From the NCBI GenBank assembly GCA_045542535.1, contig JAZQLF010000027.1, positions 14,793 to 78,792 of the forward strand: a stretch of 64,000 bases of DNA, written 5' to 3'. This stretch comes from Acutalibacteraceae bacterium (GTDB taxonomy: Bacteria; Bacillota; Clostridia; Oscillospirales; Acutalibacteraceae). Position 1 is the first letter of the stretch. The number at the start of each line of letters is the position of its first letter. Positions 36,058 to 55,139 of this stretch are shown piece by piece. Made by a program: the position numbers and the translations under genes. The notes under the pieces were generated by a model. The model did not search any database. It saw only the letters and a program-made list of their open reading frames with translations, and had not been told where the DNA came from.

Positions 36058-36086
36058 TTGTAGTTTGGAGTTTTAAATGGTATAAT
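36058..36086 (+). promoter_or_regulatory. Putative promoter of the PqqD-like gene
   Basis: TTGTAG, 17 nt, then TGG TATAAT (extended -10). It lies about 45 nt upstream of the ATG. Confidence 0.5.
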
Positions 36087-36129: not shown

Positions 36130-36408
36130 ATGGAAGAGAAACTTTTCAGCATCAAAGGCTCTTATGTTCTCCGCCAGATTGCCGGGGAATATTTAGCCGT
36201 ACCTATAAGCAACGAAGCAGGTGACGATGCTAATATTGTAATACTTAATCCTGTTAGCCAGGTTATTTGGGGCAAGCTTGAAACCGGCGCCACATTTGAT
36301 GAAATCCTCGATGTTGTTACAACAGAGTTTGATGTTTCAAAAGAAGACGCCTCTGCCGATATCAAAGAATTTTTAGATGGGCTTGAAGAAGCGAATCTGT
36401 TGAAATAA
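36130..36408 (+). CDS. PqqD-family protein (stand-alone RiPP-recognition-element-like peptide chaperone)
   Basis: 92 aa. Pattern YVLRQIAGEYLAVP......ILNPVSQVIWGKLETGATFDEILDVVTTEFDVSKEDASADIKEFLDGLEEANLL matches the PqqD winged-helix family. Confidence 0.75.
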   Translation: MEEKLFSIKGSYVLRQIAGEYLAVPISNEAGDDANIVILNPVSQVIWGKLETGATFDEILDVVTTEFDVSKEDASADIKEFLDGLEEANLLK

Positions 36409-36418
36409 TAAATATTTA

Positions 36419-36455
36419 ACCGCGTAATTGAATGGCACCATTCAATTACGCGGTT
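36419..36455. terminator. Bidirectional terminator shared by the PqqD-like and NTase genes
   Basis: ACCGCGTAATTGAATGG-CA-CCATTCAATTACGCGGT, a 17-bp perfect stem. The right arm abuts the NTase stop codon. Confidence 0.8.
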
Positions 36456-37675
36456 TATTCTTTTTCAAACAATTTCAAACTATCAAAAAGCTCTGTCCTC
36501 TGCTTTGCTTCGGAAACGAAACTGTTAACCTTTATTTTAGGTCTTTCCCCTTTTAATGAACGAAAAACATATCTTCCACCGAAATAAACCCAACCAACAG
36601 GCAAAAGTATTTTATTTTTCTCTGCGCGTTTCCAATTATTTTTAACGGATTGATTCACATACTCAATGAATCTGCCGATTTGGCTTTTATCTCTATGCTC
36701 TTCGTCTCCGTATTTAGGAAGAATCATACTTTCGTGGCTTCTGTCGTCACTTTTCTGACCTAAATTTCCACCTTTGAAAATATCTTGCGCCAATGCATCA
36801 ACAATTTTTTCATCGACCTGACCTACCCATTTTTTCGCAGGGCAGGAAAGATATTTTTCGCAAACTTTTGTTAAAACACAAGCAAAATTCCAAAGGCCAA
36901 TATTTTTGAATTTTGCTTGAAATAAATCAATAAATTCATTTTCGGGAACGGAATTCACAAAAACTGCCCAGTCGCAAAGGTGACGAAGACCCACACCGGA
37001 GCTTGTAAGGTGGTGGCAGGTATGAAGCAGTATAATCAATCCGTGGTGAAAAGGTGACGGAACTGAAATCCCACCAAAAAGGGTATTTCGATTTTCCGCT
37101 TTCTCCAAAATATCCGCTAAATAAGTTTTAACCAACGCCCCTGCTTCACCCTTAGGCATACCTGCAGGAGCGGTGTGAAGCTCATATCTGCAAACTCCGT
37201 CTGTAAAAACCAAATGGTCGCCGTGGGATTTTTCTGATACCACAAAGCCGTTTTGCTCTAACGCTTGGCAAGTCTTTTTCAAATCACTTTCATTAACAAG
37301 AAAATCCACATCACCCATTGACCGCAAAAGAAAATCAGGGTAATAAAGAGCAGAAGCCAGACCTTTTAAAATAACATAAGAAATACCTGAATCAGTAAGA
37401 ATCTTATGAATTTTAAAATGACTTTTATTTACCGTAAGGTTATCTGACATTCGGCTTTGAAGATTTTTTCTTATATTGGAAAAATCTGCAGCTAAAGTCA
37501 GATCCTCGGAAAAATCTGAAAAGGCTATAAGAGAAACTGCCTGCATATAGGCCTCATACCAAACCAAGCGCCAATCCAAAGAAACGCCATCAATGGACTT
37601 ACCTGCACCAAATAAATTGTTTGCAAGCAAATCCAGAAGAACCTGTTCATTTTTATTCAAAACGCTTTCGGTCAT
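36455..37675 (-). CDS. Uncharacterised nucleotidyltransferase-family protein (NTP_transf_5-like)
   Basis: NTase-fold motif SMGDVDFLV, then HTCHH...GLRHLCDW typical of that family as I recall it. Last gene of the glycan operon, 34 nt after wzt. Confidence 0.6.
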   Translation of the reverse strand: MTESVLNKNEQVLLDLLANNLFGAGKSIDGVSLDWRLVWYEAYMQAVSLIAFSDFSEDLTLAADFSNIRKNLQSRMSDNLTVNKSHFKIHKILTDSGISYVILKGLASALYYPDFLLRSMGDVDFLVNESDLKKTCQALEQNGFVVSEKSHGDHLVFTDGVCRYELHTAPAGMPKGEAGALVKTYLADILEKAENRNTLFGGISVPSPFHHGLIILLHTCHHLTSSGVGLRHLCDWAVFVNSVPENEFIDLFQAKFKNIGLWNFACVLTKVCEKYLSCPAKKWVGQVDEKIVDALAQDIFKGGNLGQKSDDRSHESMILPKYGDEEHRDKSQIGRFIEYVNQSVKNNWKRAEKNKILLPVGWVYFGGRYVFRSLKGERPKIKVNSFVSEAKQRTELFDSLKLFEKE

Positions 37676-37709: not shown

Positions 37710-38978
37710 TTATTCACTTTCAATTTGCTCAACACAAGGAATAACCGCATTACCCCAGTCCTTGAACCAGTGCTTGAGGTGAACCGAATTATCACAATGT
37801 TCAATTCCAATTTTCATACAGATATATCGATCATAATACTCAATATTTCCAATTTCATCCTCGATATAAAAAACATGCTCTATTGCATACTTACCGGGAA
37901 CTAAAAAAGACGTATTCAATTCAAAATCACAAAAATTCTCGCCTTCTTTAAAATCAACATCGCCTACTAAACAAAGACCAACAGGAGTAAGGTCGACACC
38001 CTTAATTATAAACTTTAAAAGCAGTCTTCCGGCATCTATTTGACTAAACCAATTCATACGAAAACGAACAACATCGCCATAATTAAAAATATTATTATCT
38101 GCACCCAGAAGTTCAACACTATTTAGTTTGTGTTTAGCATTACACTTAGGAGAACGTTTAAACTCAGTCAAATCAAAAAATGCTGTATTATCAAGTTTTT
38201 CATCTTGAACATATACCGCTATACTCTCTTGAACTGAACCAACAAAAGCAACCTTGCCTTGTTTTAATACAACACACCTATCACAAAGACTTTTTACCGT
38301 CGCCATATTGTGACTTACATATAAAACTGTTCTTCCTTCTTCTGAAGCAACCTTTTTCATTCTTTCGATGCACTTATTCTGAAAATTAACATCTCCAACA
38401 GCAAGAACCTCATCCATAATCATAATTTCAGAATTAAGATGAGATGCTACAGCAAAGCCCAATTTAACCCGCATGCCACTTGAATAGCGTTTAACAGGAG
38501 TATCTATAAACTGTCCCACTTCAGAAAACTCTACAATTTCATCAAACTTTTCGTCTATTTCCGATTTACTCATACCGAGAATTGCACCATTGAGATACAC
38601 ATTCTCTCGACCTGTCAGTTCTTCATGGAAGCCTGTTCCAACTTCTAACATAGAGGTTATTCTACCGTTAATAAAAATCTTGCCTCTTGTGGGTGCAGTA
38701 ACACGACAAATCAGTTTCAACAAAGTTGATTTACCAGCTCCATTATGTCCGATGATACCAATCGCTTCACCTTTTTTTATCTCCAATGATATATCGTTAA
38801 GAGCAAGAAATTTTTCGTTTTTATCGTAAGACTTTTCACCAATTTTAAGATTGGGGTCTTCTTTTTTTCGGATTTTTGCCAATTTTGATTGCAACTCCGC
38901 TTTCAGTGTTCCGCCACCTATAGTTCCTAATCTGTATTCTTTAGAAACATTTTCTATTTTTATTGCTAACTCTTCCAT
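37710..38978 (-). CDS. Glycan-export ABC transporter ATP-binding protein (Wzt/TagH-like) with C-terminal extension
   Basis: GHNGAGKST, YSSGMRVKL and IMDEVLAVGD, plus a ~170-aa C-terminal beta-rich domain. Confidence 0.85.
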   Translation of the reverse strand: MEELAIKIENVSKEYRLGTIGGGTLKAELQSKLAKIRKKEDPNLKIGEKSYDKNEKFLALNDISLEIKKGEAIGIIGHNGAGKSTLLKLICRVTAPTRGKIFINGRITSMLEVGTGFHEELTGRENVYLNGAILGMSKSEIDEKFDEIVEFSEVGQFIDTPVKRYSSGMRVKLGFAVASHLNSEIMIMDEVLAVGDVNFQNKCIERMKKVASEEGRTVLYVSHNMATVKSLCDRCVVLKQGKVAFVGSVQESIAVYVQDEKLDNTAFFDLTEFKRSPKCNAKHKLNSVELLGADNNIFNYGDVVRFRMNWFSQIDAGRLLLKFIIKGVDLTPVGLCLVGDVDFKEGENFCDFELNTSFLVPGKYAIEHVFYIEDEIGNIEYYDRYICMKIGIEHCDNSVHLKHWFKDWGNAVIPCVEQIESE

Positions 38979-38990
38979 AATGTACCTCTG

Positions 38991-39848
38991 TTAAATCGTA
39001 TCAAGGAATGTTTTTTCTACTTTTGCAAAAACACGAACAGCTAAACCAACAACTATAATTGTAATAATCCAGCTAATGCCATAATAAAGCCAATCTATTT
39101 CTCCTATACCCAAAAAAGCATATCTAAAAACATTAATAATAGGTGTTACTGGATTGAGCATGTAAATATTATACAACATGCTTCCGGGCATAAGTTGCGA
39201 ACGGCTGAACATATCGTAAGCCACAGGGGAACAGTAACTCCAGAGACTTATTCCAAAACCCACGACCATCTGTAAATCCCTATATTTAGTAGTTAAAGAC
39301 GATACTATTACACCTATTCCCATTCCGAGTGCTGCAAGCTGAACGAGTAACACCGGCAACATCAAAACATACATGTTGGATGAAACGCCTGAATCTGTTG
39401 CAGTATAATAAACAAGAAAACACAACATAAAAATAAACTGAATTGTAAAGTTTATAAACTGTGAAATTGCAGTTGAAATTGGCATTACCAACCTTGGGAA
39501 ATAAACTTTTGAAAAAATATGCTTGTTGGTAATGAAAGTATTCGCATTCTGATTAAGACTTCCTGAGAAAACACTCCAAGCAATATTACCGCACAAATAA
39601 AATATAAAATTAGGAACGCCCTCAGCACCTAAACCTGCAATATTACCAAAAAAAACAGAGTACACCACAGTAGTAAAAAATGGCTGAATAATAGCCCACG
39701 CCGGCCCTAATATAGTCTGCTTATATTTCGAAACAAAATTTCTTCTAACCCAAAGAAAAATCAAATCCTTGCTTTTGATAATTTCCTTTATATCAACTTT
39801 GGTTTTACTGCCACTGTCTACAATAACAGTCCAGTTTTGTTCAGACAT
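38991..39848 (-). CDS. ABC-2-type glycan-export permease (Wzm/TagG-like)
   Basis: 6-TM protein whose N-terminus FVSKYKQTILGPAWAIIQP is typical of ABC-2 permeases. Confidence 0.85.
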   Translation of the reverse strand: MSEQNWTVIVDSGSKTKVDIKEIIKSKDLIFLWVRRNFVSKYKQTILGPAWAIIQPFFTTVVYSVFFGNIAGLGAEGVPNFIFYLCGNIAWSVFSGSLNQNANTFITNKHIFSKVYFPRLVMPISTAISQFINFTIQFIFMLCFLVYYTATDSGVSSNMYVLMLPVLLVQLAALGMGIGVIVSSLTTKYRDLQMVVGFGISLWSYCSPVAYDMFSRSQLMPGSMLYNIYMLNPVTPIINVFRYAFLGIGEIDWLYYGISWIITIIVVGLAVRVFAKVEKTFLDTI

Positions 39849-39862: not shown

Positions 39863-41086
39863 TTACAAAGACTCAATAACATTTAGCCATTGATTTACAA
39901 TATTCTCAACAGAAAGTTCTTCCCTGACTTTATAAGCGTTTTTACCGCATCTTTCTGCCAGACCTTCTTCTGATGCCATTCTGCACATAGCCTTATATAA
40001 AGCATCCACATCTTTTACAGGAACAAGCAGACCATTTTCACCGTCAGTTATCATTTCTCTTGCTCCGCCACCCAAACAATCGGTACAAATACAAGGGAGC
40101 CCCATTGCCATTGCTTCAATCATTGAGTTTGAAAGGCCTTCGGAGTCGGATGAGGAAACGAACATTCCGTAATCCTCTATTTGTTGGTGAATATTTGTAA
40201 CAGCTTCAAAAATTTCAACTTTTTCACTAATACCCAAATCGTTAATATGCTTAATAACTTCAGCTTTGTAATTCTCCGCGATTCGAGTAGATGTCGCTCC
40301 ATATATGTGAAGTACATAGTCAGGAAAATCAACCGAAAACCGACTAAATGCATCTACTAATAAAATCAAGTTTTTAACCGGATGAGTACGACAAAAATTA
40401 ACAATTGTATGTTGTCTTTCACCGGAGAAAAATGGTGACAATTGTGTAGTTAGGGGGTTTTTTATAACTTTACTATTACGTTTCACACATTTTCCGTAGT
40501 ACTCTTTTTGTTTAGTCGTTTGGAAAACACAATAATCACCTTTTTTCAAAAGCTTTAATAGCACCTTATTATAAAGACGCATGTTCTCTTTATTATCCTT
40601 GAAGTCAGGTGAACTCGCATCTGTAAAAATAATTTTGCAATTCAAGCCTTGTATAGCATAATATATTTTCTCATAGATACCAATACCAAAACAGATAAAT
40701 ATTGCCTCTCGTTTACATAAAGCGAAAGCCCTCAGAAAAGCTATCCCCTCAAGATTATTTTTTTGCCTTTTCACCTTTAAATCATCATACCCACACAATT
40801 TTGCAAGTCTGTGCAAAATATGCAAATATTTAAATTTTTTGTCTCGCCATACAGTCGCCTGTTTTTTCTCTTTTAGCGCAACAGAATCCCTTGCAAAATC
40901 CGCCATACAGATAAGTTCAACCCCATCTGCTAATTCATACACCACATCAGAATATATTTTTTCCAACACTAAATATGTAACATCGTAACCTTTCTCCGCA
41001 AAGCTATTGGCAAGTACCGTCGCCCGTCTTTCTGTTCCTCCATTGACAAAATTTTTAGTAACAATAACAATATGTTTTTTTTGCAT
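39863..41086 (-). CDS. Glycosyltransferase family 4 (paralogue group A)
   Basis: NGGTERR N-terminus. C-terminus FVSSSDSEGLSNSMIEAMAMGLPCICTDCLGGGAREMITDGENGLLVP. Confidence 0.85.
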   Translation of the reverse strand: MQKKHIVIVTKNFVNGGTERRATVLANSFAEKGYDVTYLVLEKIYSDVVYELADGVELICMADFARDSVALKEKKQATVWRDKKFKYLHILHRLAKLCGYDDLKVKRQKNNLEGIAFLRAFALCKREAIFICFGIGIYEKIYYAIQGLNCKIIFTDASSPDFKDNKENMRLYNKVLLKLLKKGDYCVFQTTKQKEYYGKCVKRNSKVIKNPLTTQLSPFFSGERQHTIVNFCRTHPVKNLILLVDAFSRFSVDFPDYVLHIYGATSTRIAENYKAEVIKHINDLGISEKVEIFEAVTNIHQQIEDYGMFVSSSDSEGLSNSMIEAMAMGLPCICTDCLGGGAREMITDGENGLLVPVKDVDALYKAMCRMASEEGLAERCGKNAYKVREELSVENIVNQWLNVIESL

Positions 41087-41106
41087 GCAAACGCAATCTC
41101 CTTATT

Positions 41107-42081
41107 TCAGCGCAATATGCGTTTCTTTTTTGGTAGCTCTATATACTCACCAAATGTATAGTTCCATTCAGATGGATTAAGGTTAGCAAATCCACCCGTT
41201 GGGAAAAATGTTATCTCACCAAAATATATATTGCCCTGAATGTTATATAAATCAACCCTGGAATATGGCAGTGATTGAGATAATTGCCCCGCTATATCTT
41301 TCATTTCTTTGAAATTCTTCGGAATCTGAACAGAACTATTTGCCGGCAAGTTCGGATACACCTCATGTATTATAGGCAAATGATTATAACCCATATCAAA
41401 ATAATCCAAATATTTTTCACCATTTTCAGCAGAAAGAACATATAATATTTGGGGAGAACCATTAAAACAATGAAACTTATAATCCGTAAGGGTATCATTA
41501 ACACCGTCACTCATATACTTTTCACATATTATCTTTCTTTTTATATGCTTATACGGCCATTCTCTGCTAGCTTTATAAAAGTTTATTTCTAACCTTCTTT
41601 TAAGAAAAGTTTTAACATCATCGATATCGTTTAGTGATCTTTTTTTGCACATAAAATCATTGTTTTTTTTGTCCCGACAAATAACAACCTCCGAATCATG
41701 GTTGCATTTCAGAACAAACGCATTTGGAAGGGCATCAAAATCAATTTCTTCTACCTTATCGTACACCCCAAGAAGAGGAACCAGATATTCTTCACCAATT
41801 TTTCCTTTGATATATTCACGAACACGATATTTATCTACCATCATGGTATATTCAGGTTTTCTATTATAAAGCTTTAACCAATTTAATTTCTCATTAAAGG
41901 TCACAGGATTTTTCAAATTTAGTTCTTGTCCGGTACGCTTTTTATACAATTTCTTTAAATAAATCTTATCTGGTAGCAGAGAAGTATAGGAACCCTCTAC
42001 TGTAAAATAAGCTTTATAAAAACCTTTTATATTCTTTAAAATACGTTTTTTAAATTCATATAATTTCTCAATTAGCATCAT
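41107..42081 (-). CDS. TupA-like ATP-grasp amidoligase-family protein
   Basis: NLKNPVTFNEKLNWLKLYNRKPEYTMMVDKYRVREYI, with C-terminal DLY...IYFGEITFFP. Confidence 0.7.
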   Translation of the reverse strand: MMLIEKLYEFKKRILKNIKGFYKAYFTVEGSYTSLLPDKIYLKKLYKKRTGQELNLKNPVTFNEKLNWLKLYNRKPEYTMMVDKYRVREYIKGKIGEEYLVPLLGVYDKVEEIDFDALPNAFVLKCNHDSEVVICRDKKNNDFMCKKRSLNDIDDVKTFLKRRLEINFYKASREWPYKHIKRKIICEKYMSDGVNDTLTDYKFHCFNGSPQILYVLSAENGEKYLDYFDMGYNHLPIIHEVYPNLPANSSVQIPKNFKEMKDIAGQLSQSLPYSRVDLYNIQGNIYFGEITFFPTGGFANLNPSEWNYTFGEYIELPKKKRILR

Positions 42082-42131
42082 TTCAATACTCCTTGAATAC
42101 CAAATTATTCTTCACCCAACAAACAAGATGA

Positions 42132-43349
42132 TTAGATTCTTTCTATAAAATCCAACCATTTTTCGGCTATTGTTGTTACAGAAAGATCTTCTCTTTTCTT
42201 CTCGGCATTTATTGAGCATCTTTCTGCCAATTCATGATCTTCAATAAATCTTTTCATAGCACGATACAAACTTTCAGAATCATTCATTGGTACAAGCAAG
42301 CCATTTTTGCCATCAGTTAACATTTCTCTTGCACCGCCGCCTAAACAATCGGTACAAACGCAAGGCATACCCATAGCCATAGCTTCTATCATTGAATTTG
42401 AAAGCCCTTCAAAATCAGAAGAAGAAACAAACATTGCACAATCGTTAACAAGCTTATGAACATCTTTTGATGGTGGCAAAAGTTTTATATAACTTTCTGC
42501 ATTTATTGTTTTGAGCAAATTCTTATATTCTTCTAAAAGCTCTTCCTCATGCTTTTCAACTGTATTTCCGTAAATTTCTAAAACATATTGAGGATAATGT
42601 TCGTGAAGTTTTTTCATTGCCTCAAACAAAAGAGGAAGATTTTTCTGCTTTGAAATGCGGCAAAAGTTTACTATTACTTCTCTTCTCTCTCCCTTAAACC
42701 TTTCGGGTAAATCTGCTTTTACAGGGTTATTTATAACCGCGGCATTTTTCAATTTATCCCCATAAAACTCCAATTCGTTTTCGGTTTGCAAAACAACTCC
42801 ATCAGCTTTCTCAACAAGCTCAATCAATCTTTTTCTTTCACTTGCATCTTTTGGAAATTCAACTTCCGATGCATTTCTTTCTGCATATATAATTTTAGAA
42901 CCAAAAGGCTTGATTGCAGAAAATGTTTTTTCAAAGCAAGCAATTCCAAACGGTACATAAATACTTTCCTGATTTTTTAATGCAAAAGCACTTAATTCTT
43001 GGCTCCTGCGTATACTTTTGATTTTTTCAGCCAAGGTTGAATCAAAATTTTTAAAAAAACGAGTTGCATATCTAACCAATTTTATAATTCGAATTTTTAA
43101 TTGCTGCTTTTTTTGATAATTAATGACTTTTTTATCACATTTATGCTCTTTGGTATACTCGGAAAGCGAAACAATCTGAACATTCTCGTGCTGCTTAAAA
43201 TAAACGTCATCAGAAATTGAACCCGTAATAAGAATAGTTGAGCTATATCCCTTTTCAGCAAAGGCGTTAGCAAGATTTGTTGAACGCATGGCAACACCGC
43301 CATTTTTATAATTACCTATAACAAAAACGATGTGTCTCATGCGTTTCAC
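42132..43349 (-). CDS. Glycosyltransferase family 4 (paralogue group A)
   Basis: FVSSSDFEGLSNSMIEAMAMGMPCVCTDCLGGGAREMLTDGKNGLLVP. Confidence 0.85.
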   Translation of the reverse strand: MKRMRHIVFVIGNYKNGGVAMRSTNLANAFAEKGYSSTILITGSISDDVYFKQHENVQIVSLSEYTKEHKCDKKVINYQKKQQLKIRIIKLVRYATRFFKNFDSTLAEKIKSIRRSQELSAFALKNQESIYVPFGIACFEKTFSAIKPFGSKIIYAERNASEVEFPKDASERKRLIELVEKADGVVLQTENELEFYGDKLKNAAVINNPVKADLPERFKGERREVIVNFCRISKQKNLPLLFEAMKKLHEHYPQYVLEIYGNTVEKHEEELLEEYKNLLKTINAESYIKLLPPSKDVHKLVNDCAMFVSSSDFEGLSNSMIEAMAMGMPCVCTDCLGGGAREMLTDGKNGLLVPMNDSESLYRAMKRFIEDHELAERCSINAEKKREDLSVTTIAEKWLDFIERI

Positions 43350-43404
43350 CTCTACTTCTTTTTATATCAAAGACCTGATTTTTTTACTCCGATTATATTT
43401 TTGC

Positions 43405-43653
43405 TCAATTTTCGTCCGCAAATTTTCTTATGCCTTTTTCAACCTTTGACTGAGCCAAATAAAGCTCGTCAGCAGAAAGGCGGAACGGAATCTGAAAATC
43501 TTTAAAACTCCCGTTACCGCTTCGCACGTTGACGCAAAAATTATAATGCTCTCCGCCGTCACGGGTGTCAAAGCAGGAATCGGGTATAGAATAAAGATAT
43601 TTTCTGCCCTTATATTCATAAGAGAAAATCTCCATATCATCTCTTTGTTTCAT
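43405..43653 (-). CDS. Small hypothetical protein
   Basis: 82-aa ORF (possibly 76 aa from MEIF) with no family recognised. It is flanked by 55- and 66-nt gaps inside the operon. Confidence 0.45.
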   Translation of the reverse strand: MKQRDDMEIFSYEYKGRKYLYSIPDSCFDTRDGGEHYNFCVNVRSGNGSFKDFQIPFRLSADELYLAQSKVEKGIRKFADEN

Positions 43654-43719
43654 TAGTCTTTACCTCTAATTTTATTTTCAATACACTTTCAATTTAATTT
43701 TACAATATAGAAAAATCCC

Positions 43720-44979
43720 CTATTTTTTGTTATAAAATAAACTTAAAGTATTTATAATAGGTTTGTTTCTCTTTATCAATTTATTAAGTTCATCGATTTG
43801 TGCTTTATTGACTATCGTAGGCATATCAACATTAGTTTTTTCTCTTGACATAAATACATTATCTTGATTAATATTTTCAACCAGACCACATTTCCTTAAG
43901 AAGCCTTCAAAAGCATCAAATTTTTGGGGGAAATTTTCATTAAATTTACTGTAGTCTGTTTCTAAATACCAATCATATAAACCCTTCTTTTTTAAGTCTT
44001 TGGAAGGTTTAATGTGCGGTATGTCAAAGAATTCTGTCATCTCTCTTGTTCGGGCATCCATAGTATAACACAATGATGGTACACCTGATAGAACCGGCAT
44101 AATAGTTCCATGAATTCGGCTACCGAAAGAAAAAGCCACCTTGTTTTGAACATAATAACTCATCCATTGCTGTGTATCTGCAAACAACTTTATCCTATTA
44201 TCTGCAAGCGCTTGAACAAAATCACAATCGCCACGCTTTACATATTTTAAAACTCGCCTTAATGCAAAAGGATTATTCTTAATAAATTCAGGGTCATAAA
44301 GGAATTTACCATACTTATCCTGACAAATAAAATGAGATGTTTTTATATTTTTATGGCTTACCGGGAGTTTAAATGTTCCGTTTATAGTTGCTGTAAAATC
44401 CTTCTGTGACACTTTATCGTTTGATATTAACAAATTTCTCCCCATTTGATAAAGCGAGGGGCAACCTGTAACAACTGCCTCCTTGAATCCTAAACGATGA
44501 AAAAACTCTTCAGTAAAATATCCTCTCAGAGCAAACTGCCCACCGGTATTATAAACTGACTTTATAAATCTTGTAGCGGGTTCTTTTAATGTTACAACAA
44601 GGTCATCAATTTCATCATATGAATTTGCTTGAATACCACAAGCAATAACATAAACAGGAATCTTTAATTTTTCTATATAAGTTACTCTTTTTTCAAGATA
44701 TTGTATCCAACCTTTGTGAAAGCAATTTGCTAATGGTAACAAAACACAATCAAAATTACTATTTATGTAGTCCGCTGTCAAATCCTCATATCCATATTCA
44801 TATGTATTTTCGGGAACACTTATCGCGGATATTATGCCTTGTAACCAAACCTTGTTACCAAAATTCGGAATTTTACCATCCAACTCTTTTCGAGCTCTTT
44901 CTGCAAGAGTGCTGTAATCAGTTGGCCTGAAATCGCTCATACCTAATTTGTTTGGCGGATAAAAAATCAAAATTCTCAT
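43720..44979 (-). CDS. Polysaccharide pyruvyl transferase-family protein
   Basis: NFGNKVW near the N-terminus and a late GSRIHG motif, resembling the CsaB/WcaK-type pattern. Confidence 0.55.
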   Translation of the reverse strand: MRILIFYPPNKLGMSDFRPTDYSTLAERARKELDGKIPNFGNKVWLQGIISAISVPENTYEYGYEDLTADYINSNFDCVLLPLANCFHKGWIQYLEKRVTYIEKLKIPVYVIACGIQANSYDEIDDLVVTLKEPATRFIKSVYNTGGQFALRGYFTEEFFHRLGFKEAVVTGCPSLYQMGRNLLISNDKVSQKDFTATINGTFKLPVSHKNIKTSHFICQDKYGKFLYDPEFIKNNPFALRRVLKYVKRGDCDFVQALADNRIKLFADTQQWMSYYVQNKVAFSFGSRIHGTIMPVLSGVPSLCYTMDARTREMTEFFDIPHIKPSKDLKKKGLYDWYLETDYSKFNENFPQKFDAFEGFLRKCGLVENINQDNVFMSREKTNVDMPTIVNKAQIDELNKLIKRNKPIINTLSLFYNKK

Positions 44980-46094
44980 TTTGTTCTCCTAAATACAAGC
45001 TTATATACTCTCCCCACAACCGCACTTTCAGTGAGGAAATGCATAATTTCGCCTTTCGTTTGTTTTTTCTTTTCCAATTGTTTTCTGTATCGAGGGATAT
45101 AATCCACTATTTTCTCTGCATCTTTCTTTAAGATTAATTCGTAATATTTTTTATATACGGCACTGAGCTTTTCCAAAGGAATCTGACCATAAAATCTTTC
45201 ACATAACGGATGGTTAACAATTTCCTTTACAAGTTCAATCTTTTTTTCTCTGCTATTGGGGCAAAGAAGCTTGAATTCATTATCAATACACTCTGTTACA
45301 AAGAAAAAGTTTCTTAAATGCATCTGAGGCATTAAATCAAGCTCTTTGAATTCTTCCGTATCCTTATAAAGTCTTTCTATAAGAGGGACATATAAGGGCC
45401 ACATATTTTTAGTGTAACCCCTCGACAAAGAATCTCCAACAACTCTGTTATGGTAGAGATAATCGTCACCAAGGTAATAAAAATTTTCTGCCACAAGCAT
45501 GGCTTCATAGGTTAACTGCAAATCCTGGCTTCTTCTGAAGCGGCGGTCAAATCTTATATTGTTTTTTTTGAGAGTTTCTGTTTTATAAATTCTCAGGCAA
45601 TTAGACCATCTAATCGCTCTTTTTCCTCCATTTTTGTCGATATAAGCGAGGGTTCGGGGAAGGATTTCTTTTTTTATTTTTTCTCTGTCATATGGTCCGC
45701 TTTCCATTTCGGGAGTAAAACGATGACCGTTTTCATTTTCAATGCAGTTGCAAAAAGCTACATCGGAATTGTTGCTTTTTGCGGCTTCATACATTTTTTC
45801 ATACATATTAAGCTCAAGCCAATCGTCTGAATCCACAAAGCCTATATATTCACCTGTTGCTCTCACCATTCCGTCATCACGTGCAGCGGCAAGACCTTCA
45901 TTTTCTTTATAGTAATATGAAACTCTTTCGTCAGTGAGATATTTTTTGCAAATCTCTGCGCTGCCATCTGTTGAGCCATCGTCAATGAGAATTATTTCAA
46001 TATCTTTAATGGTTTGGTTAACAATGCTATCAAGGCATTGCGGGAGATATCTCTCCGCATTATATATTGGAACAATAACGCTTACCTTAACCAT
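44976..46094 (-). CDS. Glycosyltransferase family 2
   Basis: VSVIVPIYNAERYL...DDGSTD...DSDD. Confidence 0.85.
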   Translation of the reverse strand: MVKVSVIVPIYNAERYLPQCLDSIVNQTIKDIEIILIDDGSTDGSAEICKKYLTDERVSYYYKENEGLAAARDDGMVRATGEYIGFVDSDDWLELNMYEKMYEAAKSNNSDVAFCNCIENENGHRFTPEMESGPYDREKIKKEILPRTLAYIDKNGGKRAIRWSNCLRIYKTETLKKNNIRFDRRFRRSQDLQLTYEAMLVAENFYYLGDDYLYHNRVVGDSLSRGYTKNMWPLYVPLIERLYKDTEEFKELDLMPQMHLRNFFFVTECIDNEFKLLCPNSREKKIELVKEIVNHPLCERFYGQIPLEKLSAVYKKYYELILKKDAEKIVDYIPRYRKQLEKKKQTKGEIMHFLTESAVVGRVYKLVFRRTK

Positions 46095-47295
46095 TGATAA
46101 TCTCCATCCATTTTTCGATGATTTTTTCTAAAGACTGATTTTCTCTTACTGCTACAGCATTTCGAGAAAGCTTTTCTGCCAAAGCCTCGTCTTCTGTAAT
46201 TCTTTTCATTGCGAGATATAATTTTTCTGAATCCCCAACAGGAACGAGAAGACCATTTTCCCCGCCTTTAATAACCGCTCTCGCACCGCCTGCAGGACAA
46301 TCCGTACAAACACAGGGTAAACCCAATGCCATTGCTTCAAGCATTGAATTAGACATCCCTTCAAAATCTGAAGAGGACACAAACATTTTGTAATCCTTGA
46401 TTTCTTCGTGAATATCTCTGCGAGAAGGTAAAAGAAAAATTTTGTCTTTACAAGGCGTTTTTTCTATTCTTTCTTTAACCAAATCTATATACCCTTGGGC
46501 ATCGTTCCCCACAGGGTCGCCAATAATATATAATTCATATTCCGGAAAATCCGTATAAAACTTTTCAAATGCCTCCACAAGCAAAACGAGATTTTTTTGT
46601 GCTGAAATGCGGCAGAAGTTGACAATTTTCTTTTGCCTTTCTCCATGATAACTTTCGGGCAAATCTGCTTTTATGGGGTTAAAAATTACAGTACCTTTAA
46701 CAGATGTATTTTCTTTATACCATTTCTGCGCATCAGGAGACTGAAAAACAAAAGCATCCGCTTTTTGAAATTCGTTTTTCAAAAATGCCATTGTGGTTTT
46801 GCTGTTGGCAGATTGCCTTGGGTCGCCACGTTCTGAAACAATTAACTTATTTTTCTTGCCCTTGGAAAGTAAAGAAAGAAAAATCGAATCATAAAGAAAT
46901 GCTACTGCAGAAGAGGTTTTATGTTCTTTAAAATATTTTTTTAAATAGCAAACCTCTTTGAAATTACGAGAAAGATATTTTAGAACAGAAGATTTATATT
47001 TTGCTTTTTCTCCAAAAATGAAGCTCAACTTACCAATAAATCTTGCAACAAACATTATTACTTTCGGGCAAATTTTATTTGATTTTAAGTTTTTGGTTTC
47101 ATCTGGTAAAGAAATCACTTCAATATCAGGGTTTATATCGTTTAACAAGGCATCTTTTTCGCTTTGGTGAGTGAGAATAAGGGTGGTTTTAAAGCCTTTT
47201 TCGGCAACGGCTTTGCTGAGCAGCGAAACAACTCTTTCTGCTCCCCCGCCGTTCATAACCTTTATTAAAAAAACAATTTCCTTTTGTTTTTTCAT
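46087..47295 (-). CDS. Glycosyltransferase family 4 (paralogue group A)
   Basis: NGGGAERV, then FVSSSDFEGMSNSMLEAMALGLPCVCTDCPAGGARAVIKGGENGLLVP. Confidence 0.85.
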   Translation of the reverse strand: MKKQKEIVFLIKVMNGGGAERVVSLLSKAVAEKGFKTTLILTHQSEKDALLNDINPDIEVISLPDETKNLKSNKICPKVIMFVARFIGKLSFIFGEKAKYKSSVLKYLSRNFKEVCYLKKYFKEHKTSSAVAFLYDSIFLSLLSKGKKNKLIVSERGDPRQSANSKTTMAFLKNEFQKADAFVFQSPDAQKWYKENTSVKGTVIFNPIKADLPESYHGERQKKIVNFCRISAQKNLVLLVEAFEKFYTDFPEYELYIIGDPVGNDAQGYIDLVKERIEKTPCKDKIFLLPSRRDIHEEIKDYKMFVSSSDFEGMSNSMLEAMALGLPCVCTDCPAGGARAVIKGGENGLLVPVGDSEKLYLAMKRITEDEALAEKLSRNAVAVRENQSLEKIIEKWMEIING

Positions 47296-48344
47296 AACCC
47301 TTTAATTCTCGCTTTTATTTTCTTGTATTTTTTATAAATTGATTTTTTGAGGAAATGCAATCTCAAAAAGCCGTATTTTTTTTCTTTAATTTTTTTATAT
47401 AGTAAAACCGAATTTGGATTACTATCTTCTATTTCATTAATTGAAAAATCATCAGGCAAAAATGAATCCCAATCATAATCCACAACTGCTTTTCTCTCGG
47501 CATTATTTTTTGCATTCTCATAGAAATTTGAGAATGTATAAATAGTTTTATCCATCCAACATTTTTTTAATTTTCCCCTATAAGTTTTATCATCCATATT
47601 CCATCTTGGAAGATACCCTAAAAAATGTTTATAAACATGAATCATATTTTGTTTATTTATTTTTTCAACTGAAAAATTTTTTGAAATACTGCTTAGATTC
47701 GTTCTGTAATTATAAAGCACTTTATTGACACAAACTATACTATTAGATTCAGTAAAAATATTTATTGACCTAAATCTATCTTCTCCCATATCCTTACCAT
47801 AGTATTGTGAATAATCCGTAGGATCTTTTTTCAAAATTTCGGTTTTTATGGCTTTTATCCACAAAGCTGTAAAAACTGGTGAACAAATTAATTGCTCATA
47901 GAAAAATCTCTTCTCTTCTTTAGTAAAAACTTTATCAGGAACATCTACTTTTCTTTTTGTAATTTTTCCGTCATCATAATATTGAAAAGAATATATTACC
48001 ATATCAGGATTATTGTTCTTTTCAATTTCTTCATTTACAACCTGCAACAGATTATTTTCTGCAAAATCGTCAGAGTCAACAAACAAACAATACTTACCTT
48101 TAGCCTTTTCTATTCCAGTATCTCTCGCAGAAATAAGGCCTTGATTTGCCTTATGAACAACCTTGATTTTTTCAGGAAACTTTGATGCATATTTGTCACA
48201 AATTTTTCCTGAGTTATCCGTTGAACCGTCATCCACAAGAATTATTTCATAATCGCCCTCATAGGTTTGGAAAAGCAATGAATCAACACATTGTTCGAGA
48301 TATTTTTCAACATTATATACCGGAACAAGTATGCTGAACTTCAT
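47292..48344 (-). CDS. Glycosyltransferase family 2
   Basis: MKFSILVPVYNVEKYL...DDGSTD...DSDD. I chose the ATG at 48344 after GGAG. The track start at 48374 would overlap the upstream gene by 25 nt. Confidence 0.8.
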   Translation of the reverse strand: MKFSILVPVYNVEKYLEQCVDSLLFQTYEGDYEIILVDDGSTDNSGKICDKYASKFPEKIKVVHKANQGLISARDTGIEKAKGKYCLFVDSDDFAENNLLQVVNEEIEKNNNPDMVIYSFQYYDDGKITKRKVDVPDKVFTKEEKRFFYEQLICSPVFTALWIKAIKTEILKKDPTDYSQYYGKDMGEDRFRSINIFTESNSIVCVNKVLYNYRTNLSSISKNFSVEKINKQNMIHVYKHFLGYLPRWNMDDKTYRGKLKKCWMDKTIYTFSNFYENAKNNAERKAVVDYDWDSFLPDDFSINEIEDSNPNSVLLYKKIKEKKYGFLRLHFLKKSIYKKYKKIKARIKGL

Positions 48345-48349
48345 TTCTT

Positions 48350-49537
48350 TCACTCCTCTAAAAGATTTTGCCATTGGGTTTTATATATTTCTAATTCTTC
48401 GGAATAATCAATATTTTTCAGATTTTGCTCAATACTACTTCGAAGCTTCGGGTTGTTTAAAATAGTCTCTATGCTCTGTGCTATCCCTTCTGAAGAAATC
48501 GAACACACAAGTCCATTTATATTAGGCTCAACAAGTTTTTTTCCCCCAAGTGTTGCAGTAGTTATAACAGGCTTATAAAGTTTATGGGCCTCAACAATAG
48601 TATTTCCCAAAGACTCTGCATAAGAAGGCTGAACATACACATCGCAAGCATTCATATAAGGGTATGGATTTTTCTGCATACCGGTTATTATAATCTCTTC
48701 TTGCAGATTATATTTTTCTATAAGCTTATCAATATTTTCTCTCTCGGGTCCGTCACCAACAAAATACCAAAGAAAAGAAATGTCTTTTCCTTTTAAAATT
48801 TTTGCCGCTTCAACCGCCAAATCAAAACCCTTAACCTTGGCGAGCCTACCACAAGAACACAAAACAAGTTTTTCTTTAGGTTTTTCAACAATATACTCTT
48901 TGCTTTGCGCTGTTATAAAATCTTTATCTGTATAATTCTCAATGATATAAATCCTATTCTTAATGCTAGGATACCATGTTCCTATTAATTCTTTTTGATT
49001 GTTATGAAGTGCCAATACCTTATCAAAATTATCAATTATAGGTACATGAATATTATGGAAATCATCTGTACTACTACGGAAAAAGAAATACTTTTTATTG
49101 GCATTTATACATTCACTAGTAAATAAAACTGTATATCCTTCTAAGTATGATATAGCTATATCATACTTTTCGGAACTGAAAAAGCGTTTTCTTTCATATT
49201 CCATTGACCACTTTACAATAGAATCAGAAAGCTTTTTATTAAATTTTTCTGTCTTCTCCTTTTTGCCCAAAAGCTTGAAAAGCAAAATTAACATCTGCAG
49301 AATAACCGCATAGGGCTTTCTGTAATAATGGTGATTATCATCATTGATTATTACATTAACTCTTTCATCAACCAAAGAAAGCAAATCCGTTCGGTTTTTG
49401 CGAAGATAGAGAGTTACGTCAAATTTTTCGTAATCAATGGCCTTCAAGGCAGAAATTAAAGATTTCTGCACACCGCCGATGGTCAGATGATGGGCTACTA
49501 TGAGTAATTTCTTTTTATTCACATTAACTCCATCCAT
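48350..49537 (-). CDS. Glycosyltransferase (GT-B, GT4/GT1-like)
   Basis: HLTIGGVQKSL N-terminus and C-terminal YVQPSYAESLGNTIVEAHKLYKPVITT. Confidence 0.75.
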   Translation of the reverse strand: MDGVNVNKKKLLIVAHHLTIGGVQKSLISALKAIDYEKFDVTLYLRKNRTDLLSLVDERVNVIINDDNHHYYRKPYAVILQMLILLFKLLGKKEKTEKFNKKLSDSIVKWSMEYERKRFFSSEKYDIAISYLEGYTVLFTSECINANKKYFFFRSSTDDFHNIHVPIIDNFDKVLALHNNQKELIGTWYPSIKNRIYIIENYTDKDFITAQSKEYIVEKPKEKLVLCSCGRLAKVKGFDLAVEAAKILKGKDISFLWYFVGDGPERENIDKLIEKYNLQEEIIITGMQKNPYPYMNACDVYVQPSYAESLGNTIVEAHKLYKPVITTATLGGKKLVEPNINGLVCSISSEGIAQSIETILNNPKLRSSIEQNLKNIDYSEELEIYKTQWQNLLEE

Positions 49538-51707: not shown

Positions 51708-51711
51708 ACAC

Positions 51712-52644: not shown

Positions 52645-52662
52645 ACTTTCACCTACCTATAA

Positions 52663-55129: not shown

Positions 55130-55139
55130 CTCCTATTTT

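What the first reader, a model, noticed from the sequence alone, without database searches (positions are those of the whole stretch)
36130..37675. Orphan PqqD-like peptide chaperone convergent with an uncharacterised nucleotidyltransferase at the 3' end of a glycan-export operon
**Seen in the sequence**
- A 92-aa PqqD-family ORF has its own extended -10 promoter (TTGTAG-17-TGgTATAAT).
- It is convergent with a 406-aa NTase-fold protein (SMGDVDFLV; HTCHH; LRHLCDW).
- The two genes share one perfect 17-bp bidirectional terminator.
- The NTase is the last cistron of the 23-gene glycan operon, 34 nt after wzt.
- I see no radical-SAM enzyme, YcaO, lasso cyclase/peptidase, HprK-like kinase or obvious precursor-peptide ORF nearby.

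**Established**
- PqqD-like domains act as RiPP recognition elements that present a peptide to a modifying enzyme.
- PqqD plus this NTase family recur together in lasso-peptide-type and HprK-related-kinase neighbourhoods, where their function is still unknown.

**Inference**
- This may be a minimal two-component peptide- or protein-directed nucleotidylylation module wired to a glycan exporter, for example modifying a carrier, a cap or the exporter cargo.
- Alternatively it is the residue of a decayed RiPP cluster.

This is my best candidate for an undescribed system in the window.
Basis: partly seen in the sequence, partly recalled or inferred. Interest (0 to 1): 0.7.

Follow-up and report, generated by a model that had tools for sequence, protein, structure and literature searches.

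The report
Split peptide-modification cassette around glycan operon
The "orphan" PqqD chaperone and its neighbouring nucleotidyltransferase look like two pieces of a larger, uncharacterised peptide-modifying gene set whose other parts (a 77-residue cysteine peptide, a radical-SAM enzyme and a kinase-like protein) sit at the far end of the same surface-sugar operon.

Summary
A 92-aa PqqD gene (PF05402) converges on a 406-aa PF14907 nucleotidyltransferase. They share a 17-bp hairpin, and the NTase is the last cistron after Wzm/Wzt.

The PqqD is not an orphan.
- The window holds a conserved 77-aa peptide gene (62349-62582, minus strand). Its N-terminus, YIKPTF, fits the [Y/W]xxPx[LVIFA] motif bound by lasso/LPP-type PqqD chaperones. 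It has three conserved Cys and an invariant C-terminal Ser.
- This peptide gene directly follows a giant secreted-protein gene that runs off the window end.
- In two same-genus contigs, a radical-SAM gene lies just upstream of that giant gene.
- In other lineages the order PqqD, ScmC/HprK-like P-loop protein, radical-SAM/SPASM enzyme, giant protein, peptide is contiguous.

The closest described system is the LPP family (Popov et al. 2026). It combines a discrete PqqD, an HprK-like kinase and NTP_transf_5, and sits inside capsule loci. This locus differs in having a radical-SAM enzyme, a Cys peptide and a giant protein, and in being split across a 25-kb glycan operon.

I rate it a new variant of a known kind. 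The NTase's target, peptide or glycan, remains inferred.

The parts
36058..36086 (+). Candidate extended -10 promoter of the PqqD gene (TTGTAG, 17 nt, TGgTATAAT)
   Evidence: Read directly from the sequence. The consensus scan did not report it because the -35 hexamer matches only 3 of 6 bases. Function is untested.
36130..36408 (+). PqqD-family discrete RiPP recognition element (92 aa)
   Evidence: PF05402 at E=6e-12. A profile of the subfamily hits solved lasso/LPP RREs: TbiB1 5v1u at E=1.8e-8, LppB 9x8z_B and PbaB1 9x90_B. dN/dS is 0.06-0.14. Orthologues sit beside ScmC-like, radical-SAM and c34 genes elsewhere.
36418..36455 (.). Shared bidirectional terminator hairpin (17 bp stem, 4 nt loop)
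   Evidence: Terminator scan, both strands. Hairpins of different sequence occupy the same position in relatives.
36455..37675 (-). NTP_transf_5 (PF14907) nucleotidyltransferase-fold enzyme, 406 aa, last cistron of the glycan operon
   Evidence: PF14907 at E=2.9e-31. The AF2 model has pLDDT 79.5. Foldseek hits are MenT1, ANT(2''), LnuA and FKRP, all NTase folds. GDVD and a downstream Glu are invariant in 21 orthologues. This is the same Pfam family as LppN of LPP clusters.
37710..39848 (-). Wzt (ABC ATPase, 37710-38978) and Wzm (ABC-2 permease, 38991-39848) glycan exporter
   Evidence: PF00005 and PF01061. Orthologues carry a weak Wzt_C hit.
39863..62119 (-). Glycan biosynthesis operon. It encodes an Ig-like membrane protein c18 (61274-62119), two CpsC/D-like Wzz+kinase genes (58269-61267), a Bac_transf initiating transferase (57527-58249), many GT1/GT2 glycosyltransferases, a pyruvyl transferase (43720-44979) and a TupA-like ATP-grasp enzyme (41107-42081).
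   Evidence: Pfam scans and cluster labels.
62174..62202 (-). Promoter-like site in front of the glycan operon
   Evidence: TTGATT, 17 nt, TATTAT. Consensus match only.
62300..62332 (-). Terminator hairpin after the c34 gene (14 bp stem followed by a T-rich tail)
   Evidence: Terminator scan.
62349..62582 (-). c34: 77-aa candidate precursor peptide. Features are YIKPTF at residues 4-9, Cys25/54/62, a CKFTS motif and an invariant C-terminal Ser.
   Evidence: ORF with an AAAGGAGG ribosome-binding site. The family has about 25 representative clusters of 73-87 aa. It sits 4 bp from PqqD in L106/L107 and is part of the contiguous cassette in L125-127. AF2 pLDDT is 50, so no stable fold is predicted.
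62596..64000 (-). C-terminal ~467 codons of a giant secreted protein (c33). The reading frame is open to the window end.
   Evidence: 33-39% identical to the last ~400 residues of 1441-2940-aa proteins that always precede c34.

Best explanation
The PqqD protein is the free-standing peptide-recognition subunit (RRE) of a RiPP-type cassette. That cassette is split around, and embedded in, a cell-surface glycan locus.

**Proposed parts**
1. c34, a 77-aa peptide encoded at 62349-62582. Its N-terminal Y-x-K-P-x-hydrophobic motif is the handle that the PqqD binds.
2. A radical-SAM/SPASM enzyme with no RRE domain of its own. It therefore needs the PqqD. It most likely cross-links the three conserved cysteines as thioethers.
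3. A ScmC/HprK-like P-loop protein, a candidate kinase.
4. The PF14907 nucleotidyltransferase. By analogy with PsmN and LppN, it would decorate a phosphorylated serine, most plausibly the invariant C-terminal Ser of c34, with a sugar or sugar-phosphate.
5. A giant secreted protein that always precedes c34.

In this genome the peptide and the giant protein sit at the 5' end of the glycan operon. The radical-SAM and P-loop genes are expected just beyond the window. The NTase is the operon's last cistron, and the PqqD faces it across a shared terminator.

**Shown**
- The family assignments.
- The existence and conservation of c34.
- The gene neighbourhoods.
- The absence of an RRE in the radical-SAM enzyme.
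- Purifying selection on PqqD.

**Inferred**
- PqqD binding to c34.
- Thioether chemistry.
- Phosphorylation of the C-terminal Ser.
- The NTase acting on the peptide rather than on the glycan.
For: **PqqD type**
- PF05402. The best NCBIfam hits are ScmD and lasso PqqD chaperones.
- The subfamily profile hits solved lasso/LPP RREs. These bind [Y/W]xxPx[L/V/I/F/A] (PMC13381572).

**c34**
- Residues 4-9 are YIKPTF, and 23 of 25 family representatives fit the motif.
- P7, C54, C62 and the terminal Ser77 are invariant. Y4, K6 and C25 are at least 90% conserved.
- It has a strong ribosome-binding site and its own terminator.

**Adjacency**
- c34 then PqqD, 4 bp apart, in L106/L107.
- PqqD, giant protein, c34, ScmC-like, radical-SAM in L110-113.
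- PqqD, ScmC-like, radical-SAM in L098 and L102.
- PqqD, ScmC, radical-SAM, giant protein, c34, CpsB in L125-127.

**Same-contig evidence**
- JAZNPT010000057.1 carries ScmC, radical-SAM, giant protein and c34 (L120). About 30 kb downstream it carries Wzm, Wzt, NTase, LCP and a convergent PqqD (L016).
- Same-genus contigs JAZQJD010000004.1 and JAZOXO010000008.1 carry radical-SAM, IVP, giant protein, c34 and c18 (L123, L124). On JAZQJD010000004.1 the NTase and convergent PqqD lie 24.7 kb downstream of c34 (L008), the same spacing as in the window. For JAZOXO010000008.1 co-residence of NTase and PqqD is inferred only from matching contig length (180,947 bp).

**Radical-SAM enzyme**
- CX3CX2C plus seven invariant C-terminal Cys.
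- The best solved relative is SkfB, aligned from SkfB residue 105. Alignments to AlbA and StsB also start near residue 100, so there is no N-terminal RRE.

**NTase link to c34 independent of PqqD**
- In six loci the order is giant protein, c34, CpsB, c18, CpsC/D x2, NTase. Five more show the CpsB-to-NTase part, with the upstream region cut off.

**Precedent**
- PsmK phosphorylates the C-terminal Ser, and PsmN is required for hexose on that phosphate (PMC6993621).
- LPP clusters combine PqqD, HprK-like kinase and NTP_transf_5 in capsule loci.

**Selection**
- PqqD dN/dS is 0.06-0.14.
Against: - The radical-SAM and ScmC-like genes were not seen in this genome. They are inferred from synteny, because the window ends inside the giant gene and look-ups for this contig failed.
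- ScmC-like hits to HprK_rel_A and ScmC are far below the curated cut-offs (21-28 bits against 125-200). No solved kinase matched beyond the P-loop.
- In most loci the PqqD is the last gene of an LCP, GalE-like epimerase, PqqD operon, not next to RiPP enzymes.
- About 46% of NTase loci with enough flank show no PqqD within 10 kb.
- One species keeps the NTase while its PqqD is a pseudogene.
- LppN showed no activity on its peptide in a heterologous host. No NTP_transf_5 enzyme has been shown to act in vitro.
- No binding or structure test of PqqD with c34 could be run.
- c34 might instead be a small partner of the giant protein.
Confidence: 0.6

Rival explanations
1. The PqqD serves the radical-SAM/c34 cassette, but the NTase has nothing to do with the peptide. 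It is a glycan-pathway enzyme. It could be a LicD/FKRP-like phosphotransferase that decorates the polymer, or an enzyme that caps the polymer so that Wzt can export it. Its position opposite PqqD is inherited gene order.
For: - The NTase is always inside polysaccharide operons. It follows Wzt, CapE/G/F or CpsC/D, and is often followed by an LCP ligase.
- Structural neighbours include FKRP, a ribitol-phosphate transferase.
- NTase clusters outnumber this PqqD subfamily about 3 to 1 (1826 against 632).
- In one species the NTase is kept while PqqD is a pseudogene.
- LppN had no effect on the peptide in a heterologous host.
Against: - NTP_transf_5 co-occurs with a discrete PqqD and an HprK-like kinase in 140 of about 150 LPP neighbourhoods.
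- PsmN is required for a peptide modification.
- The NTase sits five genes downstream of c34 in loci that have no Wzm/Wzt or glycosyltransferase genes nearby.
- c34 ends in an invariant Ser, as the PsmK/PsmN substrates do.
Confidence: 0.27
2. A minimal two-component PqqD+NTase module works without RiPP enzymes. It nucleotidylylates a carrier, a cap or a protein of the glycan exporter.
For: - The convergent adjacency with a shared terminator is conserved in the genus and in L017, L040 and L043.
- No maturase lies within the 64-kb window.
Against: - A motif-bearing peptide gene is in the window.
- PqqD orthologues sit beside radical-SAM, ScmC-like and c34 genes in several lineages, and the same genes are on the same contigs in close relatives.
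- The distance between PqqD and NTase varies from 19 bp to 7.3 kb, and PqqD is usually co-transcribed with other genes.
Confidence: 0.07
3. c34 is not a modified peptide. It is a small accessory subunit or secretion partner of the giant secreted protein. The PqqD and the radical-SAM enzyme act on some other substrate.
For: - c34 always follows the giant gene with 0-13 nt between them.
- At 73-87 aa it is long for a RiPP precursor.
- The conserved C-terminal half could be a small domain.
Against: - The N-terminal [Y/W]xxPx-hydrophobic motif fits the RRE type.
- The Cys residues are invariant, and the linker between motif and first Cys is rich in Gly, Ala and Ser.
- AF2 gives no confident fold.
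- c34 abuts PqqD directly in L106/L107.
- LPP precursors range from 35 to 200 aa.
Confidence: 0.05
4. The pair is the residue of a decayed RiPP cluster.
For: - No maturase lies next to PqqD in this window.
- A PqqD pseudogene exists in one related species.
Against: - PqqD dN/dS is 0.06-0.14, with 72-89% identity across about 100 clusters.
- c34 is intact with a strong ribosome-binding site.
- The radical-SAM gene is called as a 358-aa product in two same-genus contigs, although each fetched locus holds only its 3' part.
Confidence: 0.01

Closest known systems
LPP (linear polyphosphorylated peptide) gene clusters of Bacillota (Popov et al., Nat Commun 2026, PMC13381572)
   Same: - Discrete PqqD-family RRE.
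- NTP_transf_5 enzyme.
- HprK-type P-loop protein.
- Precursor with an N-terminal YxxPx-hydrophobic motif.
- Embedding in capsular-polysaccharide loci.
- Some relatives of this PqqD also sit beside an archaeal-type signal-peptidase-like gene and an MsbA-like exporter.
   Different: - The window has no SpI-like peptidase and no MsbA-like exporter.
- A radical-SAM/SPASM enzyme and a giant secreted protein are added.
- The precursor has three conserved Cys and a C-terminal Ser, and lacks the rest of the LPP leader consensus (VLxHQxIxFETxxS).
- The genes are split across a 25-kb Wzm/Wzt operon.
- The host is a rumen or gut Acutalibacteraceae, not a Bacillus or Paenibacillus.
Paeninodin/pseudomycoidin-type lasso tailoring (HprK-like PadeK/PsmK plus PsmN; PMC6993621, PMC8498205)
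   Same: - A kinase-type protein plus an uncharacterised NTase next to a PqqD-type RRE.
- A substrate peptide that ends in Ser.
- An NTase DxD motif (GDVD here; D134/D136 in PsmN).
   Different: - No lasso cyclase or B2 peptidase appears among the Pfam-annotated genes of related loci. The window itself was only partly scanned.
- The peptide is 77 aa with Cys residues.
- Whether the C-terminal Ser is phosphorylated here is unknown.
Radical-SAM/SPASM thioether peptide maturases (SkfB, AlbA, StsB, PapB) and the split PqqD/PqqE arrangement
   Same: - CX3CX2C plus a seven-Cys SPASM region.
- A Cys-containing peptide.
- The RRE supplied in trans, as in PqqD/PqqE.
   Different: - All hits are far below equivalog cut-offs.
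- The enzyme lacks the fused N-terminal RRE that SkfB, AlbA and StsB carry.
- The cassette carries a kinase-like protein and an NTase, which is not typical of sactipeptide or ranthipeptide clusters.
SynChlorMet (Scm) cassette of NCBIfam/TIGRFAMs (ScmC, ScmD, ScmE/F), itself uncharacterised
   Same: The same set of part types: a ScmC-like protein, a PqqD-like ScmD and a radical-SAM/SPASM ScmE. These models give the best NCBIfam hits for PqqD and for the P-loop protein.
   Different: - Scores are 23-77 bits against cut-offs of 100-400.
- There is one radical-SAM enzyme, not two.
- The taxonomy and context (capsule locus, giant protein, NTase) differ.

Membership tests
PqqD / discrete RiPP recognition element (PF05402) | Scores above the Pfam gathering threshold | tested here: met
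   46.2 bits against 23.4, E=6e-12.
PqqD / discrete RiPP recognition element (PF05402) | Sequence relationship to solved leader-binding RREs | tested here: met
   Profile hits to TbiB1 5v1u at 1.8e-8, LppB 9x8z_B at 3.9e-6, PbaB1 9x90_B at 1.4e-5 and TfuB1 at 7.6e-4.
PqqD / discrete RiPP recognition element (PF05402) | A cognate peptide carrying the [Y/W]xxPx[L/V/I/F/A] handle | tested here: met
   c34 residues 4-9 are YIKPTF, and 23 of 25 family representatives fit. The motif definition is from PMC13381572. Physical binding is not testable here.
PqqD / discrete RiPP recognition element (PF05402) | Membership of a named NCBIfam subfamily (ScmD, lasso PqqD, PqqD proper) | tested here: not met
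   Best scores are 30.9 against 100, 30 against 70 and 21.2 against 46 bits.
NTP_transf_5 (PF14907) | Pfam threshold, plus an NTase fold with an acidic metal-binding motif | tested here: met
   109.4 bits against 31.2. GDVD is invariant. The AF2 model matches NTase folds.
NTP_transf_5 (PF14907) | Catalytic activity and substrate | not testable with these tools
   No family member has a defined in-vitro reaction.
LPP biosynthetic cluster (Popov et al. 2026) | Discrete RRE plus NTP_transf_5 inside a capsule locus | tested here: met
LPP biosynthetic cluster (Popov et al. 2026) | HprK-like kinase | tested here: inconclusive
   None in the window. Syntenic relatives have a P-loop ScmC-like protein with a sub-threshold HprK_rel_A hit at E about 1e-4.
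LPP biosynthetic cluster (Popov et al. 2026) | Archaeal-type signal peptidase I (TIGR02228) as leader peptidase | tested here: not met
   No hit in the window. Sub-threshold TIGR02228 hits occur beside PqqD in L002-4 and L114 only.
LPP biosynthetic cluster (Popov et al. 2026) | MsbA-like exporter | tested here: not met
   The window shows only ATPase-domain similarity to other ABC proteins. An MsbA-like gene lies beside PqqD in L087 and L114.
LPP biosynthetic cluster (Popov et al. 2026) | Precursor leader consensus YxxPxVLxHQxIxFETxxS | tested here: not met
   Only the YxxPx-hydrophobic part is present in c34.
SynChlorMet cassette (TIGR04248-04251) | Equivalog scores for ScmC, ScmD and ScmE/F | tested here: not met
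   ScmD 30.9 against 100, ScmC 23-28 against 125, ScmE 73-77 against 400.
Radical-SAM/SPASM thioether RiPP (sactipeptide or ranthipeptide type) | Radical-SAM CX3CX2C plus a SPASM Cys set next to a Cys-bearing peptide | tested here: met
   Met in relatives L120, L121, L125, L098, L102 and L110. In this genome the gene lies off the window and was not seen.
Radical-SAM/SPASM thioether RiPP (sactipeptide or ranthipeptide type) | Thioether cross-links in the product | not testable with these tools
   Needs mass spectrometry or NMR of the modified peptide.
Lasso peptide cluster | Asn-synthetase-like cyclase and transglutaminase-like B2 peptidase | tested here: not met
   Neither appears among the Pfam-annotated genes of the related loci or among the window genes that were scanned. 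The window was only partly scanned.

The most novel reading that the evidence does not exclude
The cross-linked c34 peptide is the acceptor or anchor of the polysaccharide made by the operon it brackets. The ScmC/HprK-like protein phosphorylates the invariant C-terminal Ser. The NTase, which is co-transcribed with Wzm/Wzt, joins a sugar or the glycan chain to that phosphate. The product would be a ribosomal-peptide-polysaccharide conjugate that is exported and displayed, possibly together with the giant secreted protein.
Probability: 0.1. Interest if true: 0.9.

Novelty: new variant of a known kind. Interest (0 to 1): 0.6.

Why it matters
LPP-type and paeninodin-type systems (PqqD, HprK-like kinase and NTP_transf_5 in capsule loci) were described only in 2026. 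Their biological role and the reaction of the NTase are still open. LppN was inactive when taken out of its polysaccharide context.

Here the NTase is literally the last cistron of a Wzm/Wzt glycan operon. The cassette also gains a radical-SAM/SPASM enzyme, a new 3-Cys peptide family that no source has named, and an ever-present giant secreted protein.

This gives three things:
- A defined, testable set of genes for asking what NTP_transf_5 enzymes do.
- A way to ask whether these peptides are chemically tied to surface glycans.
- A candidate new family of radical-SAM-modified peptides in uncultured rumen and gut Clostridia.

Tried and rejected
1. **PqqD-c34 complex prediction.** I built a fused c34-linker-PqqD alignment from six genome-matched pairs.
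2. **c34 alone.** AF2 gave pLDDT 50. This is uninformative beyond showing no confident fold.
3. **Reading past base 64000 in the source contig.** Look-ups of the window's own c34 and CpsC/D proteins were not on record. The closest c34 relative lay on a 526-bp contig. The off-window genes therefore rest on synteny in same-genus contigs.
4. **PDB sequence searches.** The NTase profile, the ScmC-like profile, the 601-aa neighbour and the 82-aa ORF gave nothing, or only a P-loop match.
5. **c34 N-terminus as a Sec or lipoprotein signal.** Rejected. The segment before Cys25 is Gly/Ser/Thr-rich or charged in many members (for example L110), and no lipobox is conserved.
6. **The window's own radical-SAM gene (21026-22486) as the maturase.** Rejected. 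It is HemZ at 521 bits.
7. **GH4 protein c40 as a divergent PqqD at the EpiX-adjacent position.** Rejected from its sequence.
8. **Literature searches.** PF14907 gave only a passing mention in a phosphonate-biosynthesis survey. NTP_transf_5, SynChlorMet, ScmC, HprK-related kinase and PqqD+Wzt found nothing.
Full report
**1. The observation**

The features described are all in the sequence.
- The 92-aa ORF at 36130-36408 (+) is a PqqD-family protein. PF05402 scores E=6e-12, at 46.2 bits against a cut-off of 23.4.
- The convergent 406-aa ORF at 36455-37675 (-) is an NTP_transf_5 protein. PF14907 scores E=2.9e-31.
- Between their stop codons lies a perfect 17-bp hairpin (36418-36455). It scores as a terminator on both strands.
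- The NTase starts 34 nt after Wzt (37710-38978), which follows Wzm (38991-39848). Upstream runs a long same-strand series of glycosyltransferases, a Bac_transf initiating transferase, two CpsC/D-like genes, a pyruvyl transferase and a TupA-like ATP-grasp enzyme.
- The proposed promoter (TTGTAG, 17 nt, TGgTATAAT at 36058-36086) is present. It has only 3 of 6 matches in the -35 hexamer and is untested.
- The genome loci with the most similar NTase are from Acutalibacteraceae (Oscillospirales) assemblies, many from ruminant gut, so the window very probably is too.

**2. Is the pairing conserved?**

The NTase has more than 1800 relatives at 90% clustering. Full-length orthologues are 45-84% identical. 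430 stretches in species-representative genomes encode a relative.

I fetched 80 genome loci plus six from look-ups and called ORFs. I searched them with a profile of the PqqD subfamily and tabulated positions relative to the NTase.
- A PqqD orthologue (E between 1e-31 and 1e-50) lies downstream of the NTase in 42 of 87 sources.
- It is on the opposite strand in all 42, at 19 bp to 7.3 kb.
- Among loci with at least 9 kb of downstream sequence, 27 of 50 have it.

The neighbourhood is therefore conserved across about 45% protein identity, but it is not obligatory.

In most loci the PqqD is the last gene of an LCP, GalE-like epimerase, PqqD operon. That operon faces a Wzm, Wzt, CapE/G/F, NTase, LCP (plus S8 peptidase) operon. 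One species keeps the NTase while its PqqD is visibly degenerate. Within the window's genus the PqqD is under strong purifying selection, with dN/dS of 0.06-0.14. The intergenic hairpin is kept with different sequences.

**3. The missing peptide**

I scanned metagenome contigs with the PqqD profile, a search unbiased toward any partner.

In L106 and L107 a small ORF ends 4 bp before the PqqD start and follows a 1947-aa protein. A profile of that ORF found three more sets of members:
- Six NTase loci with the order giant protein, small ORF, CpsB, c18, CpsC/D x2, NTase.
- L110-113, with the order PqqD, giant protein, small ORF.
- The window itself at 62349-62582 (-).

The window copy, which I call c34, has the sequence MNKYIKPTFMVASLGVNALAAGSGCAITADDRDLIFDGASNEEIQKYFGREEGCNPWVESFCKFTSVDLGAKKAFLS.
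- It has an AAAGGAGG ribosome-binding site and its own strong terminator (62300-62332).
- It lies 13 nt after an ORF that is open to the window end. That ORF is 33-39% identical to the last ~400 residues of the giant proteins.

A search of 1.84 billion representative proteins found about 25 clusters of 73-87 aa. None carries a functional name in any source; one is labelled 'hypothetical protein'. In the alignment:
- P7, C54, C62 and the C-terminal Ser are invariant.
- Y4, K6, C25, F48, E52 and K63 are at least 90% conserved.
- The stretch between the N-terminal motif and Cys25 is Gly/Ala/Ser/Thr-rich. In some members it is charged, so it is not a conserved signal peptide.

AF2 gives no confident fold, with pLDDT 50.

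**4. The missing enzymes**

Look-ups of c34 family members showed what lies upstream of the giant gene.
- In L120 and L121 the order is ScmC-like protein (287-292 aa), Radical_SAM (361-364 aa), giant protein (2060-2224 aa), c34, CpsB, c18, CpsC/D x2.
- L120 is on the same contig as NTase locus L016. One 40-kb stretch therefore carries ScmC-like, radical-SAM, giant protein, c34, the glycan genes, Wzm, Wzt, NTase, LCP and a convergent PqqD.
- Two species of the window's own genus (NTase 81-82% identical) show Radical_SAM (358 aa), a 120-aa four-helix protein, giant protein (2882-2940 aa), c34, c18 and CpsC/D. On JAZQJD010000004.1 the NTase and PqqD lie 24.7 kb downstream of c34 (L008), the same spacing as in the window. 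For JAZOXO010000008.1 their co-residence is inferred only from matching contig length.
- In L125-127 everything is contiguous: CapF, CapG, PqqD (92 aa, 48% identical to the window's), ScmC-like, radical-SAM, giant protein, c34, CpsB.

A profile survey confirmed that PqqD abuts ScmC-like and/or radical-SAM genes in L097, L098, L101, L102, L105, L110-113, L115 and L116.

In the window the giant gene is cut at base 64000. By synteny, the maturase genes are expected about 7-9 kb further on. I could not read that part of the source contig. The window's only radical-SAM gene (21026-22486) is HemZ.

**5. What the parts look like**

*Radical-SAM enzyme.*
- It has CX3CX2C and seven invariant C-terminal Cys, a SPASM-type set.
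- Its best solved relative is the thioether synthase SkfB, aligned from SkfB residue 105.
- Alignments to AlbA and StsB also start near residue 100. It therefore lacks the N-terminal RRE that those enzymes carry.
- That explains the need for a free-standing PqqD, as in PqqD/PqqE.

*ScmC-like protein.*
- It has a Walker-A motif (SAPCGTGKST).
- It has weak, sub-threshold hits to ScmC and to HprK-related kinase A.
- A kinase role is inference only.

*PqqD profile.*
- It hits the solved lasso and LPP recognition elements TbiB1, LppB (9x8z), PbaB1 (9x90) and TfuB1.
- These bind leader motifs of the form [Y/W]xxPx[L/V/I/F/A], with Tyr and Pro essential (PMC13381572).
- c34 residues 4-9 (YIKPTF) fit, as do 23 of 25 family representatives.

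*NTase.*
- The AF2 model has pLDDT 79.5.
- It has an NTase core and is only distantly similar to MenT1, ANT(2''), LnuA and FKRP.
- GDVD is invariant.

**6. Comparison with what is known**

Popov et al. (2026) described LPP clusters in Bacillota.
[quoted passage not shown] The clusters are often embedded in capsule loci, and the precursors carry an N-terminal YxxP motif.
- Their supplementary table names the domains as PqqD, NTP_transf_5, TIGR02228 and TIGR02203.
- LppK polyphosphorylates a Ser. LppN had no detectable effect in a heterologous host, and the authors suspected a partner outside the core cluster.

In pseudomycoidin, PsmK phosphorylates the C-terminal Ser. PsmN, through its DxD motif, is required for hexose on that phosphate.

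Some relatives of the window's PqqD do sit beside a TIGR02228-like peptidase and an MsbA-like exporter: L114, L002-4 and L087. The window has neither.

The locus is therefore related to LPP and paeninodin-type systems, but it fails several defining LPP features. It adds a radical-SAM/SPASM enzyme, a 3-Cys peptide and a giant secreted protein. It also misses every NCBIfam cut-off for the SynChlorMet cassette, whose part list it resembles.

**7. Most likely mechanism**

- PqqD binds the YxKPx-hydrophobic handle of c34 and presents it to the RRE-less radical-SAM/SPASM enzyme. That enzyme cross-links the conserved Cys. The binding and the chemistry are inferred. The genomic association is shown.
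- The ScmC/HprK-like protein and the NTase would then act as in PsmK/PsmN, possibly on the invariant C-terminal Ser. This is inferred by analogy.
- The NTase's link to c34 does not rest on PqqD alone. In six loci it lies five genes downstream of c34, with no Wzm/Wzt or glycosyltransferase genes around. Five more loci show the same CpsB-to-NTase part, with the region upstream of CpsB cut off.
- The main rival is that the NTase serves the glycan, as a LicD/FKRP-like decoration or capping enzyme, and only the PqqD serves the peptide. I give the integrated model 0.6 and this rival about 0.27.

**8. Verdict**

- The PqqD is not an orphan, the pair is not a minimal module, and it is not a decayed remnant.
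- It is a new variant of a recently described kind. It brings a new peptide family and an unusual split architecture around a glycan operon.
- Interest is 0.6.

Noticed in passing
window 62596-64000 (-), runs off the window end: This is the C-terminal ~467 codons of a giant secreted protein. Relatives are 1441-2940 aa and carry a signal peptide and scattered PA14, VWA, Flg_new or GH43-related hits. They share a conserved C-terminal ~400-residue region ending in an amphipathic hydrophobic tail. The gene always lies immediately before c34. Its role is unknown.
   Followed up: partly
window 34116-35921 (-): A 601-aa secreted protein with no Pfam, NCBIfam or PDB match, transcribed divergently from PqqD. 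It is conserved next to PqqD in the genus. It also occurs near the NTase and the GalE-like epimerase in a different locus type (L034, L038, L067, L083).
   Followed up: partly
L002, L003, L004 (10206-10556, -) and L052 (14185-14535, -): The PqqD orthologue is a degenerate pseudogene in one species. That species keeps an intact NTase and an intact archaeal-type signal-peptidase-like gene two genes upstream, beyond the GalE-like epimerase.
   Followed up: partly
L087 117-2163; L114 533-2952: In L087 a PqqD 78% identical to the window's converges on an MsbA-like ABC exporter instead of the NTase. In L114 the order is PqqD, SpI-like peptidase, MsbA-like exporter, which is the LPP-type core.
   Followed up: partly
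window 30422-34006 (-): A 1194-aa protein with a type I dockerin and a C-terminal BD-FAE/alpha-beta-hydrolase esterase domain. It suggests a cellulosome-associated esterase in this organism.
   Followed up: no
window 41107-42081 (-) and 43720-44979 (-): A TupA-like ATP-grasp enzyme and a polysaccharide pyruvyl transferase lie inside the glycan operon. The polymer probably carries amino-acid or peptide substituents and pyruvate.
   Followed up: no
window 43405-43653 (-): An 82-aa ORF in a 370-nt gap of the glycan operon. It is conserved in one other locus and has no Pfam or PDB match.
   Followed up: partly
L123 819-1181; L124 602-982: A 120-126-aa 23S_rRNA_IVP-type four-helix-bundle protein sits between the radical-SAM gene and the giant gene in the window's genus.
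   Followed up: no
many NTase loci, e.g. L005 8204-10018, L050 12145-13806; L121 1-1154: An S8 subtilase with a Big_2 domain recurs. It is convergent on PqqD in about 15 loci and divergent from the ScmC-like gene in L121. It is a possible leader peptidase of the cassette.
   Followed up: partly
window 21026-22486 (-): The only radical-SAM gene in the window is HemZ (TIGR03994, 521 bits). It lies in a housekeeping block with RelA/SpoT and RecJ and is unrelated to the peptide cassette.
   Followed up: yes
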